Virus record (IMG/VR): IMGVR_UViG_2778261460_000004
Source: a virus
Lineage: Duplodnaviria > Heunggongvirae > Uroviricota > Caudoviricetes
Reading direction: 5' to 3' (one strand)
DNA length: 47,736 nt
The stretch's first letter is position 1; every line of letters begins with the position of its first letter. Below are positions 1,659 to 20,279 of the stretch, piece after piece. The position numbers and the translations under genes were made by a program. The notes below the pieces were generated by a model. That model saw only the letters and a program-made list of their open reading frames with translations. It made no database searches and was not told the DNA's origin.

Positions 1659-4139
1659 TTAAAAATCAGCCTGACTCGGGATCAGTTTTTGTATCGTAGC
1701 TGTAACGTATTTTGCCTGGTGACGGGCGTCATCCAGTGCATTGTGGCGCACGCCTTCGAATGGAATAACGGTTCTGGCATCAAAGTCGATTGTTTTTCCC
1801 AGCTCAACGATTGTGCGTACATCGCGATCGTTGTAGTAGCGCCACGGGCAGGGGATGTCCAGACGTTCGTATGAGGTGCGCAAAATTGCGTTATCGAAAG
1901 TCGCACCATTACCCCATACCTGAACGAATTTTTCATCTGAGTATTCGTTGATGAACTCCCGAAACTGCGAAAGGGCATCCTTCAGTTTTACCTGGTCTGT
2001 TAAAATGGCAGCTCTGGCTTCACTGGACTGCTTCAGCCACCATTCGATGGTTCCACCGTCAGGAACAGCCCCTGTATTCATTGCGTCAGTCAGACTGATA
2101 ACGATATAAAATACTGGCCCGATTTCCCCTGTTTGTGGGTCGAAGAAAACCGCACCAATAACCACGATGGGCGCATTGGTGTTGGTTCCCATTGTTTCAA
2201 GGTCGATCATCAGGTGGTACCACACTCTGCTGGTGGATGTGATAACGTGATGACCGTTCACCGCAATTAAGGAATCTGCCGTCTCGCCAGTTTCATTATC
2301 GCTGGCGTGGTCCTGAGCGCTGCCAGCATTCTCCTTGTGTGGATGTTCAGCGCCTTCCATTTCCTCCGGATCATTTTCCTGAACTTCAACCTGATTCTCT
2401 TCATCGAATGTTTCCTGGTATGTTGCGTCGCCCATCACCGCACCACAATCAGGGCAGTTGCCGCCACCGAGCTGACCGCAGGCGGTGCAGACTTTTTCCG
2501 CTTCCTGTTGCGCTACCGGTTCGGATTGTTTCGTTTCTGGTTCGTTTTGTAACGCATTTGGGCTGTTTTGTTCCGCTTTTGGGTCGTTCTGTTCCGATTC
2601 TTGCTGGTTCTGGTTCACAGAATCGCGGGTTTCAATCCCCTTCACCCATTTCGGATCATTCGGGTCGCTAATCCCTGCAACAAATTCTCCGCGAGAGGCA
2701 GCAAGCAACTTATCGGCGTCAGGCTGGCTGATATTGGCTGCCTGCATAATTTTGTTTACTTCGTCAGCGGTAACTTTTACCGGCTCCGGTTGTGCGGTCG
2801 TGTCAGATGCACCAGTATTTTGTTGTGAACCTGAGTATGTGCCGTTTTTGCGGGCAAAATATTCTTCTTTCGTGATTTCAGTAGCCCCTGCAGCCAGCGC
2901 CTTATTCAGACCAGAAAGTTTGTTTGCACGACCATATTTTTCGCCATCCTTATCGGTGAAAAGGAAGTAGAACGGCCCCTCACGCTCTACAGATGGTTCA
3001 GTTTCCAGCGTGCTTTCATTTTTTTGGGTATCAGATACTTCAGTTTCCACTGCATCAGTTTGTGCTGCTGACGGCTGGAGAATATCAGTAGTGTTCTGGT
3101 CTGTTTCTTCATCCTCAAACACGCCCTTTGTCGCCAGGTATTCAGTGATGTATTTGTTCAGTGCCACGGGATCTTTGTGAATGTCGATCGGACGCTCACG
3201 GACAAGGCCAAAAATAGTCTGACGGTCGTAGCGAACGGCATCGGGTTGTTTGCGCATTGATGCGGAAATGCGCTTCCAGTCTTCGCGATCTTTGTCGATA
3301 ACTTCATTTTTTGCCCAACGATGGATGCTGCCGTCAATGTTTCCGGCATTAATATCGCCAGGCCACAGAGCGTAGGCCAGTTCTTCATCCAGCGTTTTCC
3401 ATGTCTGCTTGTATTCGCGACGAATGGCGGTAGTGGCGGGGTTGATTTTTCCTGCTGAGTTTTCAGTGTGCTGCCGGTTGACTCTGGCGCGGGCAAGATC
3501 AACAACAGACGTGTATTTCCCGGTTTCTTTGCGTTCGGCTTCGCGACGTTTTTTCCAGGTGCGTAATTCTGTCTGGATCTCAGGCCATTTTGCGCCCGGC
3601 TTACATTTATGTTTAACCCACCCGATGGCGAACAGCTTTAGTTCTGAATACATGACGTTAACTTCAGGCATTTTCATCAGTGCCTCAACGATATGCCCGT
3701 CGAATGTTGCCATGTCCTCCTGCAACAATTCCTGTGCACTAATCACCATATCAACGGTGATGTTTTCACATGTACCGAACTTAACCAGGACCGCGTTCTG
3801 TACTTCAAGGGACAGCTTGTCAAAATTGACGTTCATCGGATCGGATTCTGGTTCGACCGGAACAAAGGAAGCGCCTTCCTCATCCCAGCGGTTTTCCAGC
3901 ATATATTCGGTATCCCAGGAGTCGATGGCAGGGCGGGGCATGCCGGGTTTATCCTCGCAGACAAGAAATTTATAAGCGCAGTCCTGAGCAGCCGGATATT
4001 GCTCCAGGAATTGCCAGGTAAATTTGGCACGGGCGCGGCGTTCGTCGCCGGCTTCAATGGCAGTGGCTACAGCGACTGCACCTTCTTCCTTTATTGCCTG
4101 TTCGTCCGGAATGGCGGCGCAAATAAAGACTTTACTCAT
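1659..4139 (-). CDS. Large prophage exonuclease with C-terminal DnaQ-like DEDDh 3'-5' exonuclease domain (exodeoxyribonuclease VIII-like / YdfE-like)
   Basis: 826 aa. C-terminal motifs LMIDLETMG (Exo I, D-x-E), [12 protein letters not shown] (Exo II) and [13 protein letters not shown] (Exo III, H-x4-D). Central Cys cluster [16 protein letters not shown] (zinc-ribbon-like) and Gln/Glu-rich low-complexity linker. No RecT/Bet partner seen. Confidence 0.7.
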
Positions 4140-15947: not shown

Positions 15948-17003
15948 GTGCGGGTATTACTTCGACCTGTTCTGGTACCGGAACTCGGGCTGGTGATCGT
16001 TAAGCCGGGCCGGGAATCCATGCCGGTATTCCACAATACCCGGGTACTGGTGGAGCCGGAACCGAAAAGCATGCGTAATCTGCCGTCCGGGGTCGTTCCT
16101 GCCGTTCGCCAGCCGCTAGTGGAAGACAAAACATTGCTGCCGTTTTTCAGTAACGCACGGGTGATTCGTGCTGCTGGTGGTGCTGGTGCATTGTCTGACT
16201 GGCTGTTGCGCCATATTAAATCCTGCCAGTGGCCTCATGGTGATTACCATCACAGCGAAACCGTCATACATCGTTACGGTGCTGGCGCGATGGTGTTGTG
16301 CTGGCACTGTGACAACCAGTTGCGTGACCAGTCCTCCGAATCACTTGAGCAACTTGCTCATCAAAACCTGTCAGCATGGATGATTGACGTCATACGCCAT
16401 GCAATGAATGGCACGCAGGAGCGGGAGTTATCGCTGGCTGAATTATCCTGGTGGGCGGTCTGCAATCAAGTGGCGGACGCGCTTCCGGAGGCAGTATTAC
16501 GTCGTTCTTTGGGGTTACGTGCGGAAAAAATCCGCTCCTTGTACCGCGAAAGCGACATCGTACCGGGAGAGCAGACCGCCACCAGCATACTGAAGCAGCG
16601 CACAAAAAATCTTGCGCCGCTGCCTCACGCCCACCAGCAAAACCCGCCACAGGAAAAGACGGTGGTCAGCATTGCCGTTGATCCGGAGTCACCGGCTCAG
16701 TATCTCCAGCGCCAGAAACCACAACGGGAAGAGATGCCTGTATACACGCGCTGGGTAAAAACGCAGAAATGCATGACGTGCGGTAATCAGGCAGATGATC
16801 CGCATCACATCATTGGTCATGGACTGGGAGGGATGGGAACAAAGGCTGATGATTTGTTTGTTATTCCGCTGTGCCGTAAATGTCATAACGAACTGCACGC
16901 CGGGGTAAAAGATTTTGAAGAAAAACACGGCAGCCAGCTGTTGTTGCTGATTCGTTTTTTAATGCACGCGAGAAATTCGGGTGTCCTGAAGTGGAAAGCA
17001 TGA
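15948..17003 (+). CDS. ydfU: YdfU-like DUF968 protein with HNH-like Cys/His cluster
   Basis: 351 aa; C-terminal CMTCGNQADDPHHIIGHGLGGMGTKADDLFVIPLCRKCHNELH motif; nin-region position upstream of rusA and Q. Confidence 0.75.
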   Translation: MRVLLRPVLVPELGLVIVKPGRESMPVFHNTRVLVEPEPKSMRNLPSGVVPAVRQPLVEDKTLLPFFSNARVIRAAGGAGALSDWLLRHIKSCQWPHGDYHHSETVIHRYGAGAMVLCWHCDNQLRDQSSESLEQLAHQNLSAWMIDVIRHAMNGTQERELSLAELSWWAVCNQVADALPEAVLRRSLGLRAEKIRSLYRESDIVPGEQTATSILKQRTKNLAPLPHAHQQNPPQEKTVVSIAVDPESPAQYLQRQKPQREEMPVYTRWVKTQKCMTCGNQADDPHHIIGHGLGGMGTKADDLFVIPLCRKCHNELHAGVKDFEEKHGSQLLLLIRFLMHARNSGVLKWKA

Positions 17004-17369
17004 ATGACTGAACGCATAGAATTTGTTTTGCCTTACCCGCCGACGGTGAACACCTACTGGCGACGTCGTGGCAGTACATATTTTGTATCAAAAGCCGGTG
17101 AGCGTTATCGCCGTGATGTGGCGCTCATTGTTCGCCAGCAGCGACTGAAATTGAACCTGTCCGGAAGGCTGGCAATAAAAATTATTGCAGAGCCACCGGA
17201 TAAACGTCGTCGTGACCTGGACAATATCCTGAAAGCACCACTGGATGCGCTGACGCATGCCGGACTTCTCATAGACGACGAGCAGTTTGATGAAATCAAT
17301 ATTGTGCGCGGTCAGCGCGTTCCTGGGGGGCGGCTGGGCGTGAAGATTTACAAAATTGAGAGTGAGTGA
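17004..17369 (+). CDS. rusA: Holliday junction resolvase RusA
   Basis: 121 aa; RusA-like motifs PPTVNTYW and RRRDLDNILKAPLDALTHAGLLIDDEQ. Confidence 0.85.
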   Translation: MTERIEFVLPYPPTVNTYWRRRGSTYFVSKAGERYRRDVALIVRQQRLKLNLSGRLAIKIIAEPPDKRRRDLDNILKAPLDALTHAGLLIDDEQFDEINIVRGQRVPGGRLGVKIYKIESE

Positions 17370-17920
17370 TCGTAAATATGATATACCCGGAAATTACAGG
17401 CAAAAGCGGCGAGCATTTACGTCTTAAACCGCTGGAAGCCGTCTGGATCCAGGGGAAATTACGGATGTGGGGGCGTTGGTCGTATATAGGTGGTGGCAAA
17501 ACAGGAAATATGTTCAATCAGTTGCTGGCATCCAAAAAACTGACAAAAACCGCGATCAATGAAGCCCTGCGTAGAATCAGGGAGTCAGGGATTGATAAAC
17601 CAGAGCTGGAAGCATTCTTGCGAGAGATGATCGCTGGCAGACAGAAGAGCTGGTTGTCTCACTGTACTGATGCAGAGGCGTTACGCATTGATGGGGTGAT
17701 AAGTAAAGCGCTTGCACGTTATCCTGGATTGATTGATATCCTGCGGCAAAGGTACGAAGGGCGGGGGATGAGTAAACGCAAAATGGCTGAATTGTTGAAT
17801 GAGGTTCACCCTGAGTGGTGCTATGCAACATGCCGCAATCGTATAGATATGTGGCTGAGAATAGCTGAGTTTATTCTGTATCCACTGATGCGAGATGCAT
17901 TTTCTTTTACTGACGCTTAG
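17366..17920 (+). CDS. Late gene antiterminator Q (phage 21/Qin QuuQ type)
   Basis: 184 aa directly upstream of a promoter-plus-terminator region and the late/lysis genes; overlaps rusA stop. Confidence 0.7.
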   Translation: MIVNMIYPEITGKSGEHLRLKPLEAVWIQGKLRMWGRWSYIGGGKTGNMFNQLLASKKLTKTAINEALRRIRESGIDKPELEAFLREMIAGRQKSWLSHCTDAEALRIDGVISKALARYPGLIDILRQRYEGRGMSKRKMAELLNEVHPEWCYATCRNRIDMWLRIAEFILYPLMRDAFSFTDA

Positions 17921-18083
17921 AATCTGGAGGGCGTTTGTTGTTGCACGAAGAGGATTTTTGGCTGGTGGTAAGGTTTATGCAGTTTTAAAAAAAACTTGTA
18001 TTTTTAGCCATAAACTGTTTCAATCCAGCTACGCTTCGCAAAGCTGTACCGCGAGGCGAATAGCAGACATGGACACCTGAAAG
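17921..18083 (+). promoter_or_regulatory. Putative late promoter pR' and Q-utilisation region
   Basis: Intergenic AT-rich segment between Q and a strong intrinsic terminator, as in lambdoid pR'-qut-tR' arrangement; exact -35/-10 not assigned. Confidence 0.4.
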
Positions 18084-18108
18084 AACCCGCTTTATGCGGG
18101 TTTTTTTA
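18084..18108 (+). terminator. Rho-independent terminator (tR'-like)
   Basis: AACCCGC-TTTAT-GCGGGTT hairpin followed by TTTTTTT. Confidence 0.65.
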
Positions 18109-18230
18109 TGCCTGAAAAACGGCACAGAACATTAAACGCGCTGGTAGTTGTGAATACTGGTCTTTCAGCTTGCTGGCTTTTTCGACAAGAGGTATTGGTA
18201 TGTCACGTTAACCGGAAAAGGGAAAAAGGC

Positions 18231-18428
18231 ATGCTAAAACAGCAGGATATGACCGAAACCGCCAGAGTGGTGTTTAATGAATTAAGCGTCACCGAACCGG
18301 CGACCGTCGGGGAAATTGCGCAGAATACTTACCTTTCACGCGAACGCTGCCAGTTAATACTGACTCAGCTTGTTATGGCGGGGCTGGCAGATTATCAGTT
18401 CGGTTGTTACAGACGCCTTCCGCAGTGA
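18231..18428 (+). CDS. Small hypothetical protein upstream of methyltransferase (possible winged-helix regulator)
   Basis: 65-aa product from internal ATG (MLKQQDMTETARVVFNELSVTEPATVGEIAQNTYLSRERCQLILTQLVMAGLADY...); the track ORF start at 18108 lies inside the terminator T-run and is unlikely to be used. Confidence 0.35.
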   Translation: MLKQQDMTETARVVFNELSVTEPATVGEIAQNTYLSRERCQLILTQLVMAGLADYQFGCYRRLPQ

Positions 18429-18578
18429 GGGCTTTTTAATTTGTGGTAATGGGCGGCTGGTGGGTGTTAGCGGCACCTGCCAGCCATCTGCTCATGCGTT
18501 AGGGTCACAAGCAAACCTCAGGCCCATCTGCTTTGCGCAAAAGCGGTATGAGCCTATCAGAGAAGTGCTTATTGATCT

Positions 18579-19628
18579 ATGGCCAATACTGTAAAAATAT
18601 CCAGTTGTGAGTTAATCAACGCTGATTGCCTGGAATTTATCCAGACCTTACCGGAAAATTCTGTCGATCTGATAGTCACAGACCCGCCATACTTTAAAGT
18701 GAAGCCCGAGGGCTGGGATAACCAGTGGAAGGGCGATGATGATTACCTGAAATGGCTGGACCAGTGTCTGGCGCAGTTCTGGCGGGTACTGAAGCCTGCC
18801 GGAAGTCTTTACCTGTTCTGTGGTCATCGCCTGGCATCTGACACCGAAATCATGATGCGTGAACGCTTTAATGTGCTGAACCACATTATCTGGGCGAAGC
18901 CGTCCGGACGCTGGAACGGGTGCAATAAGGAAAGTCTGCGGGCGTATTTTCCGGCAACAGAGCGCATTCTGTTTGCAGAACATTATCAGGGACCGTATCG
19001 CCCGAAAGATGATGGCTATGTGGAGCAGGGGCGCGAGCTAAAACAGCACGTCATGGCCCCGCTGATTTCTTACTTTCGTGATGCGCGTAAATCACTGGGA
19101 ATAACGTCAAAACAGATAGCGGAAGCCACCGGAAAGAAAAACATGGCTTCGCACTGGTTTGGTACCAGTCAGTGGCAGTTACCGAACGAGGGTGATTACA
19201 ACAAATTGCAGGCGTTGTTTGCGCGTGTTGCGGCAGAAAAACATCAGCGCGGGGAACTGGAAAAGCCACACCACCAGCTGGTCAGCACATACAGTGAGCT
19301 GAACTGGCAGTATACGGAACTGCTGAGTGAATATAAAAATTTGCGGCGGTATTTCGGTGTGACGGCGCAGGTTCCGTACACCGATGTCTGGACGCATAAA
19401 CCGGTGCAGTACTATCCAGGGAAACATCCGTGCGAAAAACCGGCAGAAATGCTGCAGCAGATAATCAACGCGAGCAGTCGTCCGGGAGACCTGGTTGCAG
19501 ATTTTTTTATGGGTTCAGGTTCAACGGTAAAAGCGGCGATGGCACTGGGGCGTTGTGCGATTGGTGTTGAGCTGGAGACCGGACGTTTTGAACAGACAGT
19601 CAGGGAAGTTCAGGATTTAATCGTTTGA
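18579..19628 (+). CDS. DNA methyltransferase, beta-class (DPPY motif IV before FxGxG motif I), N6-adenine or N4-cytosine; orphan
   Basis: 349 aa; LIVTDPPYF near N-terminus and DFFMGSGST near C-terminus; no restriction endonuclease gene adjacent. Confidence 0.85.
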   Translation: MANTVKISSCELINADCLEFIQTLPENSVDLIVTDPPYFKVKPEGWDNQWKGDDDYLKWLDQCLAQFWRVLKPAGSLYLFCGHRLASDTEIMMRERFNVLNHIIWAKPSGRWNGCNKESLRAYFPATERILFAEHYQGPYRPKDDGYVEQGRELKQHVMAPLISYFRDARKSLGITSKQIAEATGKKNMASHWFGTSQWQLPNEGDYNKLQALFARVAAEKHQRGELEKPHHQLVSTYSELNWQYTELLSEYKNLRRYFGVTAQVPYTDVWTHKPVQYYPGKHPCEKPAEMLQQIINASSRPGDLVADFFMGSGSTVKAAMALGRCAIGVELETGRFEQTVREVQDLIV

Positions 19629-19677: not shown

Positions 19678-19753
19678 GGCCCTTTAGCTCAGTGGTGAGA
19701 GCGAGCGACTCATAATCGCCAGGTCGCTGGTTCAAATCCAGCAAGGGCCACCA
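19678..19753 (+). tRNA. tRNA-Ile2-like (anticodon CAU; ileX/ileZ-like), could formally be Met
   Basis: 76 nt GGCCCTTTAGCTCAGTGG...CTCATAA anticodon loop...TTCAAATCC...AAGGGCCACCA; one mismatch in anticodon stem. Confidence 0.8.
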
Positions 19754-19754
19754 A

Positions 19755-19831
19755 TCGCCACTAGCTCATCAGGAAAGAGCGTCAACCCTTTAAGTTGAGT
19801 GTGCGAGGTTCGAGTCCCCGGTGGCGGTCCA
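19755..19831 (+). tRNA. tRNA-like gene, atypical (anticodon loop CCUUUAA, possibly Lys-UUU or a degenerate Arg tRNA)
   Basis: Acceptor stem TCGCCAC/GTGGCGG, T-loop TTCGAGT, 3' CCA present; C at position 33 and one T-stem mismatch make the assignment uncertain. Confidence 0.5.
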
Positions 19832-19833
19832 GT

Positions 19834-19909
<76 letters not shown>

Positions 19910-19912
19910 TAT

Positions 19913-19987
<75 letters not shown>

Positions 19988-20279
19988 GTTAGAGTCTTTC
20001 AGTCTGCGATGATGGGAAATCCCGGAGTGACTGAAAGACGTTTAGGTTATGAATGATCGCCTTTTTTTGCAAAATTGCTGTGCAGAAATACTAACCTTCG
20101 GGCAGGCGATCATTCATAAGCACTCTGCTTTTATTCCGATTAACTGTGGGTGGTTTGTTGGATAGAGTGCTTTCCTTACTGTATATATCGTTTCGCCCGC
20201 TTTTGCGGTTTTTTCTTTTTAAATCCCTTTCATTTCTCAGTGTAAAACTACGCCATCCGTTATTTGCGGAGGTGAGGCT

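What the first reader, a model, noticed from the sequence alone, without database searches (positions are those of the whole stretch)
18231..19628. Orphan beta-class DNA methyltransferase downstream of Q, preceded by a small putative DNA-binding protein
The methyltransferase (DPPY then FxGxG) has no partner endonuclease. Phage-borne orphan MTases commonly protect the phage genome from host restriction or alter host gene expression. The upstream 65-aa ORF could act like a controller protein, but this is speculative. Its position in the late operon means it is expressed on induction.
Basis: partly seen in the sequence, partly recalled or inferred. Interest (0 to 1): 0.35.

Follow-up and report, generated by a model that had tools for sequence, protein, structure and literature searches.

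The report
Prophage non-specific adenine methylase cassette
This is a prophage copy of the already characterised M.EcoGII-type enzyme, which methylates every adenine to shield phage DNA from restriction; the new observation is a conserved, folded RNA leader in front of the gene that no database describes.

Summary
Window 18579-19628 encodes an intact 349-aa beta-class N6-adenine methyltransferase, and 18231-18428 encodes a real 65-aa winged-helix protein. Both lie after a Q-type antiterminator and its terminator, ahead of the tRNAs and lysis genes.

The enzyme is not an unknown orphan. It is about 90% identical over its full length to M.EcoGII, the characterised non-specific adenine methyltransferase. 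[quoted passage not shown] No target motif is therefore expected, and a lysogen-versus-cured methylome should show nothing.

The small ORF is under purifying selection (dN/dS 0.13). However, it is missing from about a third of genus-level relatives and is not a C-protein-type regulator.

The constant partner of the methylase is the 130-150 nt spacer (about 18443-18578). It is as conserved as codon positions 1 and 2 of the enzyme. It folds into five helices with extensive compensatory changes from Escherichia to Vibrio and Acinetobacter, always ends at a start codon, and matches no Rfam family.

In Mu-like relatives a Com zinc-ribbon gene sits between this RNA and the methylase, as in Mu com-mom.

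Verdict: a known enzyme family, with an undescribed leader RNA whose mechanism is unresolved.

The parts
17366..17920 (+). Q-type late antiterminator (context: it defines the late operon that the cassette heads)
   Evidence: Pfam DUF1133 at 335.6 bits and Phage_antitermQ at 27.8 bits against a cutoff of 26. PGAP calls it 'DUF1133 family protein' in 99%-identical genomes.
17996..18024 (+). Putative late promoter PR' (TTGTAT, 17 nt, TGnTTCAAT). Inferred by eye only.
   Evidence: Read from the sequence. The consensus scan did not report it. A transcript from about 18031 to the terminator coincides with a weak full-length isrK match at 18033-18106 (21.6 bits, below the gathering score).
18085..18108 (+). 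Intrinsic terminator (tR'-like): AACCCGC-UUUAU-GCGGGUU followed by U7. Homology with phiP27 and Stx-phage cassettes starts here.
   Evidence: Fold of 18030-18112 gives -31.8 kcal/mol, z=-4.88. An equivalent hairpin plus U-run with a different stem sequence is present in all aligned relatives. The megablast match begins at query base 197, which is window 18096.
18231..18428 (+). 65-aa winged-helix protein. It is a frequent but facultative companion of the cassette.
   Evidence: dN/dS is 0.126 with a third-position diversity excess. 334 homologues were found, and the 120 listed are named (where named) from Enterobacterales genera. The AF2 model has pLDDT 85.8 with an H-H-H-beta-hairpin fold. Foldseek finds winged-helix domains of O-methyltransferases, IclR/MarR regulators and the SelB-SECIS complex, all with E>1e-3. 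Pfam TrmB/MarR/DprA_WH matches are all below their cutoffs. It is present in 27 of 45 genome loci.
18415..18441 (+). GC hairpin plus U-rich tract overlapping the small ORF's stop codon (TGA lies in the loop). It is terminator-like and weak in this window.
   Evidence: Flagged by the terminator scan. Its energy is -8.6 kcal/mol, z=-0.35. A hairpin of varying sequence plus a U-rich tail sits directly 5' of the RNA in 29 of 42 loci, including loci that lack the small ORF.
18443..18578 (+). Conserved structured leader RNA with five helices: P1 18450-54/18522-26; P2 18455-66/18474-85; P3 18489-96/18506-13; P4 18529-34/18540-45; P5 18547-53/18567-73. It ends at the MTase AUG.
   Evidence: Covariance models R1 and R2 were built and searched. 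On the 44-sequence alignment, 87.7% of cells are paired and 32 of 38 pairs show two-sided changes, against 14.8+-2.0 in shuffles and 12-16 when slid. It also exceeds controls on a structure-blind MAFFT alignment. RNAalifold recovers P1, P2 and P4 independently. Leader identity is 0.79, against 0.46 for MTase third codon positions. Indels break every reading frame. There is no Rfam match.
18579..19628 (+). M.EcoGII-family beta-class N6-adenine DNA methyltransferase (349 aa)
   Evidence: PF01555 at E=1.6e-44. Identity to M.EcoGII is 316/350 and to the phage 1720a-02 enzyme 311/348. PGAP calls it 'DNA-methyltransferase'. Related DNA is present in 2203 of 5426 complete E. coli genomes.

Best explanation
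The locus is the anti-restriction cassette that heads the late operon of a lambdoid prophage. It is tightly gated.

The enzyme (18579-19628) is a close homologue of M.EcoGII. By inference from that enzyme, it transfers a methyl group from SAM to N6 of adenine in essentially any sequence context, acting as a dimer whose helix-turn-helix four-helix-bundle domain grips nucleic acid without reading bases.

In the lysogen it stays off. Transcription from the late promoter stops at the tR'-like terminator (18085-18108). A second hairpin/U-tract (18415-18441) lies before the gene, and the start codon has no Shine-Dalgarno sequence.

After induction, Q-modified RNA polymerase reads through both terminators. 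It transcribes the winged-helix ORF, the leader and the methylase together with the tRNAs and lysis genes. Replicating phage DNA then becomes heavily m6A-modified before packaging, and so resists adenine-methylation-sensitive restriction in the next host.

The 130-150 nt structured leader directly 5' of the start codon is the conserved cis-partner of the enzyme. I infer that it sets or gates translation initiation of the first downstream cistron. That cistron is the methylase here, and a Mu Com-type translational activator gene in Mu-like relatives.

The winged-helix protein is an accessory of unknown role.

Shown here: gene identities, family membership by sequence, synteny, RNA structure and conservation. 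Inferred: non-specific activity of this particular copy, silence in the lysogen, read-through on induction, and the direction and trigger of control by the leader.
For: Enzyme family: the enzyme is 90% identical to M.EcoGII at the same length and without internal indels. It carries 11 of 13 clade-I residues. It is 89% identical to the phage 1720a-02 enzyme, which Murray et al. name as very similar.

Published biology of the family: M.EcoGII and M.EcoGI are non-specific, prophage-borne, unexpressed in the lysogen and harmful when constitutive (PMC5778455; review PMC12707154). Reconstructed ancestors of the clade are also non-specific, and the enzyme is a dimer with a Rossmann core plus an HTH bundle (PMC11551740).

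Late-operon position: a Q homologue lies upstream, followed by a strong terminator. No + strand promoter was found by the scan between 17300 and 19900.

Synteny: the same order (terminator, [wHTH], leader, MTase) follows three different Q families in E. coli, Klebsiella, Buttiauxella and Salmonella.

Leader RNA: statistics are. Distant copies lie on the same strand upstream of MTases only 38-58% identical (L176, L182, L185, L189, L232, L263), with fully compensated P2, P3 and P4. The 3' end of the model lands on the start codon of the next cistron in every lineage.

Mu parallel: Com-family zinc ribbons (PF10122 at 48, 34.6 and 23.7 bits) lie between the RNA and the MTase and overlap its start, as com does with mom in Mu. 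Alpha-class non-specific MTases behind com in Mu-like prophages are a published precedent (PMC3299994).
Against: No activity, expression or methylome data exist for this copy. The M.EcoGII sequence used came from a machine-read PDF with at least two garbled spots, so 90% is approximate. The 33 differences cluster in the linker and target-recognition region.

The promoter assignment is by eye, and the scan did not find it. The second terminator is weak in this window (z=-0.35).

For the leader, a simple occlusion model is not supported. The predicted unpaired probability of -8..+3 is 0.44 in the native context and 0.47 with the leader shuffled. Candidate alternative pairings show almost no compensatory change.

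Several MTase homologues (L154, L164, L177-L181) have no detectable leader, so it is not obligatory for the family.
Confidence: 0.75

Rival explanations
1. It is a sequence-specific orphan methyltransferase, like Dam or CcrM. It would mark one motif, be active in the lysogen, and act on host or phage gene expression.
For: It is an orphan MTase of the same Pfam family and beta class as CcrM and M.RsrI. Its 33 differences from M.EcoGII lie mostly in the putative target-recognition region.
Against: Identity to the non-specific enzyme is 90% over the full length, against only motif-level similarity to the specific enzymes (E of 1e-16 to 1e-25, in two short stretches). M.EcoGI, 95% identical to M.EcoGII, and much more distant reconstructed ancestors are all non-specific. 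The gene sits behind terminators with no promoter of its own. The family is reported silent in lysogens.
Confidence: 0.07
2. The 65-aa protein is the controller of the methylase. Like a C protein, it would bind DNA near the cassette and switch transcription of the enzyme on or off.
For: It has a winged-helix fold and is under strong purifying selection. It lies immediately upstream of the MTase in 97 of 108 viral contexts and across genera. A conserved block precedes it. Winged-helix ORFs of other sequence types occupy the same position in Vibrio-type and Pseudocitrobacter-type cassettes.
Against: It is not an Xre-type HTH, and every Pfam match is below its cutoff. There is no endonuclease to time. 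It is absent from 15 genus-level loci that retain the RNA and MTase, and from the Com-type loci L182 and L189. Transcription here is already governed by Q. The best fold matches include non-DNA-binding winged helices: O-methyltransferase dimerisation domains and the SelB-RNA complex.
Confidence: 0.12
3. The conserved spacer acts as DNA rather than as a folded RNA, for example as an operator, promoter or recombination site.
For: P4 is a near-perfect DNA palindrome in every lineage, including a self-complementary centre (GCGC, TGCA, GATC, GTAC). This is typical of sites bound by dimeric proteins. Mosaic junctions fall inside the element in L065 and L091.
Against: P2, P3 and P5 are not palindromes, yet they keep pairing through two-sided changes. 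G-U pairs are frequent (UG 12 and GU 7 in P2, GU 30 in P5). These would be C-A mismatches on the other strand, so the structure is strand-specific. The model hits only the sense strand. The element always abuts a start codon.
Confidence: 0.07
4. The enzyme's main substrate is RNA: m6A on phage or host transcripts, possibly including its own leader as a feedback loop.
For: M.EcoGII methylates ssRNA and RNA in hybrids in vitro. A structured RNA with conserved unpaired adenines is physically linked to the gene.
Against: The initial rate of M.EcoGII on RNA is about 1% of its rate on DNA, 0.12 against 11.12 (PMC11551740 Table S3). The clade residues this copy carries are those of the low-RNA-activity clade, including Q179. 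The parallel with Mu mom and the com-linked MTases points to DNA protection.
Confidence: 0.05

Closest known systems
M.EcoGII / M.EcoGI (E. coli O104:H4 C227-11 prophages; Murray et al. 2018, PMC5778455)
   Same: 349 aa, beta-class order (DPPY then FxGxG), about 90% identity, prophage-borne. A relative in phage 1720a-02 has the same small ORF, spacer and MTase layout.
   Different: About 33 substitutions, mainly in the linker and recognition region. Activity of this copy is untested. The published work does not mention the upstream winged-helix ORF or the leader RNA.
Phage Mu com-mom operon
   Same: A toxic, broad-spectrum adenine modification encoded in a late operon, silent in the lysogen, with control at translation initiation. 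Distant relatives of this MTase carry a true Com homologue overlapping the MTase start.
   Different: Mom is not a methyltransferase. This window has no Com. The Mu com leader does not match the RNA model, with a best score of 6.2 bits.
Hia5 / Hin1523 / Nma1821 (Drozdz et al. 2012, PMC3299994)
   Same: Near non-specific N6-adenine MTases of prophages that occupy the mom position behind com. They are undetectable in uninduced cells.
   Different: They are alpha-class (the reverse motif order) and unrelated in the recognition domain. They sit in Mu-like, not lambdoid, phages.
Controller (C) proteins of Type II restriction-modification systems
   Same: A small putative nucleic-acid-binding protein encoded just upstream of a modification gene.
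   Different: C proteins are Xre-type HTH dimers that time an endonuclease through C-box operators. Here the fold is a winged helix, there is no endonuclease, and the gene is dispensable in many lineages.

Membership tests
M.EcoGII family of non-specific beta-class N6-adenine MTases | N6_N4_Mtase catalytic domain with DPPY N-terminal to FxGxG | tested here: met
   PF01555 at 152.9 bits. DPPY is at residues 35-38 and FMGSG at 310-314.
M.EcoGII family of non-specific beta-class N6-adenine MTases | Full-length close similarity to M.EcoGII (349 aa, no domain gain or loss) | tested here: met
   316/350 identical, with the two gaps at OCR-garbled spots. 311/348 identical to the 1720a-02 enzyme. 11 of 13 clade-I diagnostic residues.
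M.EcoGII family of non-specific beta-class N6-adenine MTases | Encoded on a lambdoid prophage | tested here: met
   It lies between a Q homologue and the tRNA/lysis genes. The same cassette occurs in phiP27 and many Stx2 phages.
M.EcoGII family of non-specific beta-class N6-adenine MTases | Methylates adenine in any sequence context | not testable with these tools
   Inferred from homology only. It needs LC-MS, restriction protection or long-read methylome data.
M.EcoGII family of non-specific beta-class N6-adenine MTases | Silent in the lysogen, harmful when constitutive | not testable with these tools
   Consistent with two upstream terminators, no promoter of its own and no Shine-Dalgarno sequence.
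R-M controller (C) protein (for the 65-aa ORF) | Xre-type helix-turn-helix fold | tested here: not met
   Only winged-helix families match, all below their cutoffs. The AF2 model is a winged helix.
R-M controller (C) protein (for the 65-aa ORF) | Linked to a restriction endonuclease gene | tested here: not met
   No endonuclease is adjacent, here or in the related loci.
R-M controller (C) protein (for the 65-aa ORF) | Obligate coupling to the modification gene | tested here: not met
   Present in 27 of 45 genome loci. Fifteen loci keep the RNA and MTase behind unrelated genes.
Mu com-mom type translational control | Com zinc-ribbon activator gene overlapping the start of the modification gene | tested here: not met
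   No Com-like ORF in the window. It is met in relatives L182, L189 and L263 (PF10122 above cutoff) and in L178, L211 and L304 by cysteine pattern only.
Mu com-mom type translational control | Start codon sequestered in an inhibitory hairpin | tested here: inconclusive
   P5 ends 5 nt before the AUG, but predicted accessibility is no lower than with a shuffled leader (0.44 against 0.47).
Any described RNA family (Rfam 15, including the SAM and SAH riboswitch classes) | Match to a curated covariance model | tested here: not met
   No hit at E<=1 in window 18429-18578. No hit at E<=0.1 in six diverse representatives.

The most novel reading that the evidence does not exclude
The spacer is a previously undescribed class of cis-regulatory RNA: a three-way junction plus two hairpins, about 140 nt. 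It would gate translation of a toxic, non-specific DNA hypermethylase, or of the Com activator that precedes that enzyme in Mu-like phages. It may respond to a protein (the winged-helix neighbour, the dimeric methylase itself, or Com) or to a metabolite such as SAM or SAH. Its P4 hairpin, with an always self-complementary tetraloop, could mediate loop-loop dimerisation or bind a dimeric protein.
Probability: 0.5. Interest if true: 0.7.

Novelty: new member of a known kind. Interest (0 to 1): 0.45.

Why it matters
The enzyme itself is ordinary. Homologous cassette DNA is found in about 40% of complete E. coli genomes, often in several copies, and M.EcoGII, the founding member of the family, is already a commercial reagent.

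Three things are worth knowing.

First, annotations such as 'DNA methylase, hypothetical protein' in Stx-converting and other lambdoid phages hide a non-specific hypermethylase. Its product would make virion DNA refractory to many restriction systems and to some sequencing or cloning steps.

Second, lysogen methylomes will not reveal it.

Third, how cells and phages keep such a dangerous enzyme off is not explained in the papers read here. This analysis gives a concrete, testable candidate: a strongly conserved leader RNA, found from Escherichia to Acinetobacter, that always abuts the start codon. There is also a direct evolutionary link to the classic Mu Com system.

If the leader proves to be a ligand- or protein-responsive switch, it would be a new regulatory RNA class. 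It could also be a practical tool for tight control of toxic genes.

Tried and rejected
- **Rfam.** Nothing matched in the spacer at E<=1, nor in six diverse representatives at E<=0.1.
- **Mu com leader against the RNA model.** The best score was 6.2 bits, so there is no relation.
- **Com homologue in the window.** tblastn with seven Com proteins and a CxxC...CxxC scan found none.
- **Coding explanations for the spacer.**
  - The 74-aa ORF 18370-18594 spans it here, but 1-nt indels put homologous segments in different frames in relatives.
  - The mini-ORF AUG-GGC-GGC-UGG-UGG-GUG (MGGWWV...) lacks a usable Shine-Dalgarno sequence. It is absent from distant members, where the AUG is simply part of P1.
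- **RBS occlusion by the leader.** The partition-function accessibility of -8..+3 is not lower than with a shuffled leader.
- **Pseudoknot or switch pairings.** These were GCUCAU/AUGAGC, CAC/GUG, GGUCA/UGAUC (the P3 loop resembles the 16S 3' end) and AUCAG/CUGAU. They are 73-86% pairable but rest on invariant bases, so they are neither shown nor excluded.
- **A sigma-70 promoter for the small ORF or the MTase.** The scan found none on the + strand. The conserved block upstream of the small ORF has no credible -10 element.
- **Pas prophage sRNAs (2026 preprint).** These have a different location and host range.
- **Literature searches.** Searches for an EcoGII leader or for EcoGII regulation found nothing.
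- **Viral scan with a frameshifted Vibrio MTase.** The L182-seeded scan mostly returned the enteric family again.
- **True M.EcoGII sequence from an O104:H4 genome.** I could not fetch it, so I relied on the OCR copy from a supplement.
Full report
**Observation**

The window around the finding is the nin/late junction of a lambdoid prophage. It contains a DUF968 protein (15948-17003), RusA (17004-17369) and a Q-type antiterminator (17366-17920; DUF1133 335.6 bits, Phage_antitermQ 27.8 bits). These are followed by the two ORFs of the finding, four tRNA genes (19678-19987), and then holin, lysozyme and Rz.

ORF 18579-19628 is an intact 349-aa protein matching PF01555 at E=1.6e-44. DPPY is at residues 35-38 and FxGxG at residues 310-314, which is the beta-class order. 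Its solved relatives are beta-class enzymes.

ORF 18231-18428 (65 aa) is the CDS that PGAP and RefSeq also call in close relatives.

**What the methyltransferase is**

Megablast finds the 1.55-kb cassette in phiP27 (90.8%), in phage 1720a-02 (88.5%) and in many Stx2-converting phages. The homology starts inside the terminator at window 18096. The cassette DNA also matches 2203 of 5426 complete E. coli genomes, with a median of two places per genome.

Murray et al. (PMC5778455) describe M.EcoGII as a 349-aa beta-class enzyme on an O104:H4 prophage. It methylates adenine in any context, is not expressed in the lysogen, is harmful when constitutive, and has 'a very similar MTase in phage 1720A-02'.

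I took the M.EcoGII sequence from Supplementary Table S1 of PMC11551740. The window protein is 316/350 identical to it and 311/348 identical to the 1720a-02 enzyme. That sequence was machine-read from a PDF and has at least two garbled spots, so the figure is approximate.

At the 13 positions that the same paper uses to separate the M.EcoGII clade from the SUPREM clade, the window protein has the M.EcoGII-clade residue at 11. That paper also reports that the enzyme is a dimer of a Rossmann core plus a four-helix HTH bundle, and that reconstructed ancestors remain non-specific.

By every sequence criterion I can test, this is a member of the M.EcoGII family. Its non-specific activity is inferred, not shown.

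**Expression logic**

Between Q and the cassette lies a strong hairpin followed by U7 (18085-18108). Region 18030-18112 folds at -31.8 kcal/mol, z=-4.88.

I read a weak extended -10 promoter at 17996-18024, which the consensus scan does not report. The roughly 75-nt RNA it would produce coincides with a weak full-length isrK match that is below threshold.

The scan finds no + strand promoter between 17300 and 19900.

A second hairpin with a U-rich tail (18415-18441) overlaps the small ORF's stop codon. It is weak in this window (z=-0.35). However, a hairpin of varying sequence plus a U-rich tail sits at this position in 29 of 42 genus-level relatives.

The MTase start codon is preceded by ...GCUUAUUGAUCU-AUG, with no Shine-Dalgarno core.

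This layout fits the published silence of the family in lysogens and expression only from Q-modified polymerase.

**The small ORF**

It is a genuine gene. Diversity by codon position is 0.26/0.22/0.52, and median dN/dS is 0.126.

334 homologues were found. The 120 listed are at least 81% identical, and those with names come from Enterobacterales genera.

AlphaFold gives a confident winged helix (pLDDT 85.8). Foldseek matches are generic winged helices: dimerisation domains of small-molecule O-methyltransferases, IclR and MarR regulators, and the SelB domain bound to SECIS RNA. None reaches E<=1e-3. Pfam matches (TrmB, MarR_2, DprA_WH) are all below their cutoffs.

Synteny is strong among close relatives. 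97 of 108 viral contexts have the small ORF, spacer and MTase, and the same order follows three different Q families in four genera.

Among one-per-species genomes, however, only 27 of 45 loci carry it. Fifteen loci keep the spacer and MTase behind unrelated genes, and the Com-type loci L182 and L189 lack it.

It is therefore a frequent but dispensable accessory. It fails the defining features of a C protein.

**The unexpected part: the spacer is a structured RNA**

An alignment across genera showed that the 150 nt between the ORFs is better conserved than either ORF and carries 1-nt indels. A 21-mer from it occurs exactly in at least 120 IMG/VR contigs.

Across 42 genus-level loci, leader identity is 0.79. 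This compares with 0.46 for MTase third codon positions and 0.82 for first and second positions.

I defined five helices: P1 closes a three-way junction with P2 and P3, followed by hairpins P4 and P5. I then built a covariance model. It finds the element once in the window, on the sense strand, at 18438-18590.

It finds the element directly upstream of the MTase in about 45 Enterobacterales genome loci. It also finds divergent copies upstream of MTases only 38-58% identical, with scores from 22 to 43 bits:
- Pseudocitrobacter (L176)
- a Vibrio plasmid (L185)
- an unclassified gammaproteobacterium (L182)
- Acinetobacter (L189)
- metagenomic contigs L232, L263 and L305

In these copies P2, P3 and P4 have entirely different sequences but keep pairing.

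On the 44-sequence alignment, 87.7% of cells pair and 32 of 38 pairs show changes on both sides. Shuffles give 14.8+-2.0 and slid controls give 12-16. The covariation score is 0.294 against 0.04-0.08. That alignment is fitted to the model, so I applied two checks:
- On a structure-blind MAFFT alignment of closer relatives, the structure still beats the controls: 87.9% paired against at most 44%, and 11 pairs with two-sided changes against 5-7.
- RNAalifold independently recovers P1, P2 and P4.

One pair (18489-18513) has four pair types and no mismatch among 71 sequences in which both positions are present. Frequent G-U pairs make the fold strand-specific.

No Rfam family matches. Literature searches found no description.

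**Link to Mu com-mom**

In L182, L189, L263, L185 and L232, a small zinc-ribbon ORF lies between the RNA and the MTase and overlaps the MTase start. Three of these pass the Pfam threshold for the Mu Com family (48, 34.6 and 23.7 bits against a cutoff of 22.9). L178, L211 and L304 have a similarly placed small ORF with the Com-like cysteine pattern, and no RNA; these three were not scanned against Pfam.

This is the arrangement of com and mom in Mu. It also matches the com-linked alpha-class non-specific MTases of Mu-like prophages (PMC3299994).

In every lineage the 3' end of the RNA model lands on the start codon of the next cistron: the MTase in enterics, and com elsewhere. That is why I assign the RNA to control of translation initiation.

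The window itself has no Com, and the Mu com leader does not match the model.

**What remains unresolved**

The direction and trigger of control by the leader are unknown.
- Simple occlusion of the start region is not supported: unpaired probability is 0.44 against 0.47 with a shuffled leader.
- Alternative pairings that would make a switch are possible but lack compensatory support.
- P4 is a near-perfect palindrome with a self-complementary tetraloop in all lineages. This could mean a dimeric protein site or loop-loop pairing.
- Some MTase homologues have no detectable leader.

**Comparison and verdict**

The enzyme is a new copy of a known, characterised family. It misses the family identity and its consequences: no motif, and silence in the lysogen. 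It also over-reads the small ORF.

The undescribed leader RNA is the interesting residue. I give it about an even chance of being a new regulatory RNA class, with the mechanism still to be established.

Noticed in passing
window 19678-19987: ARAGORN calls the four tRNA genes after the methylase as Met(CAT), Lys(TTT), Thr(TGT) and Gly(TCC). In 99%-identical cassettes of other E. coli genomes and in phiP27, the same position holds Ile/Arg/Arg (ileZ-argN-argO type) tRNAs. The tRNA module therefore swaps independently of the methylase.
   Followed up: partly
window 18033-18106: The short RNA expected from the late promoter up to the tR'-like terminator gives a weak but full-length match to isrK, a Salmonella sRNA family in Rfam (described there as an Hfq-binding RNA): 21.6 bits, below the gathering score of 50. 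The region folds far better than shuffles (z=-4.88).
   Followed up: partly
window 18160-18210: A conserved block, CTTGCTG-N9-11-(A/C)CCAGAGTTATCTGTATGTCAC, lies between the first terminator and the small ORF in genera from Escherichia to Rosenbergiella. No credible -10 element or covarying hairpin was found, and its function is unknown.
   Followed up: partly
window 18529-18545 (P4 of the leader); also L189, L263, L185, L176: The P4 hairpin is a near-perfect palindrome in every lineage, and its tetraloop is always self-complementary (GCGC, UGCA, GAUC, GUAC). RNA hairpins do not need this. It suggests a dimeric binding partner or loop-loop pairing.
   Followed up: partly
L182 2865-3050; L189 2820-3008; L263 222-401; L232 1335-1451; L178 2850-3026; L211 and L304: A small four-cysteine zinc-ribbon gene sits directly upstream of, and overlapping, distant M.EcoGII-family methylase genes, often in Mu-like contexts. 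Those of L182, L189 and L263 pass the Pfam threshold for the Mu Com family. L232 (and L185) fall below it, and L178, L211 and L304 were recognised by cysteine pattern only. I did not find this described for the beta-class family.
   Followed up: yes
L138 2558-2797 and L150 2558-2797: In Kosakonia and one other locus, the position of the winged-helix ORF is taken by a 79-aa cysteine-rich protein (CxxC...CxxC...CxxC), ahead of the same leader and methylase.
   Followed up: no
L185 (Vibrio sinus plasmid) 2703-4016: The methylase reading frame is broken (nine stop codons in the matched frame), yet the leader RNA and a Com-like ORF upstream look intact.
   Followed up: no
window 19994-20039 and 20047-20119: Two perfect inverted repeats lie between the tRNAs and the holin gene: 11-nt arms 24 nt apart, and 16-nt arms 41 nt apart (TTATGAATGATCGCCT / AGGCGATCATTCATAA). 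No explanation was sought.
   Followed up: no
window 18573-18578 and 18503-18508: The bases just before the methylase AUG (UGAUCU) contain UGAUC, which complements 16S rRNA GAUCA and sits in register with an absent Shine-Dalgarno core. The P3 loop carries GGUCAC (GAUCAC in seven relatives), which resembles the 16S 3' end and could pair with that UGAUC. A Dam site (GATC) lies 2 nt from the AUG. There is no compensatory evidence.
   Followed up: partly
window 15948-17003: The DUF968 protein upstream of RusA also has a weak HNH-nuclease match (HNHc_6, 31.7 bits). It is a common nin-region gene. The cassette occurs without it elsewhere, so it is not a partner endonuclease.
   Followed up: no
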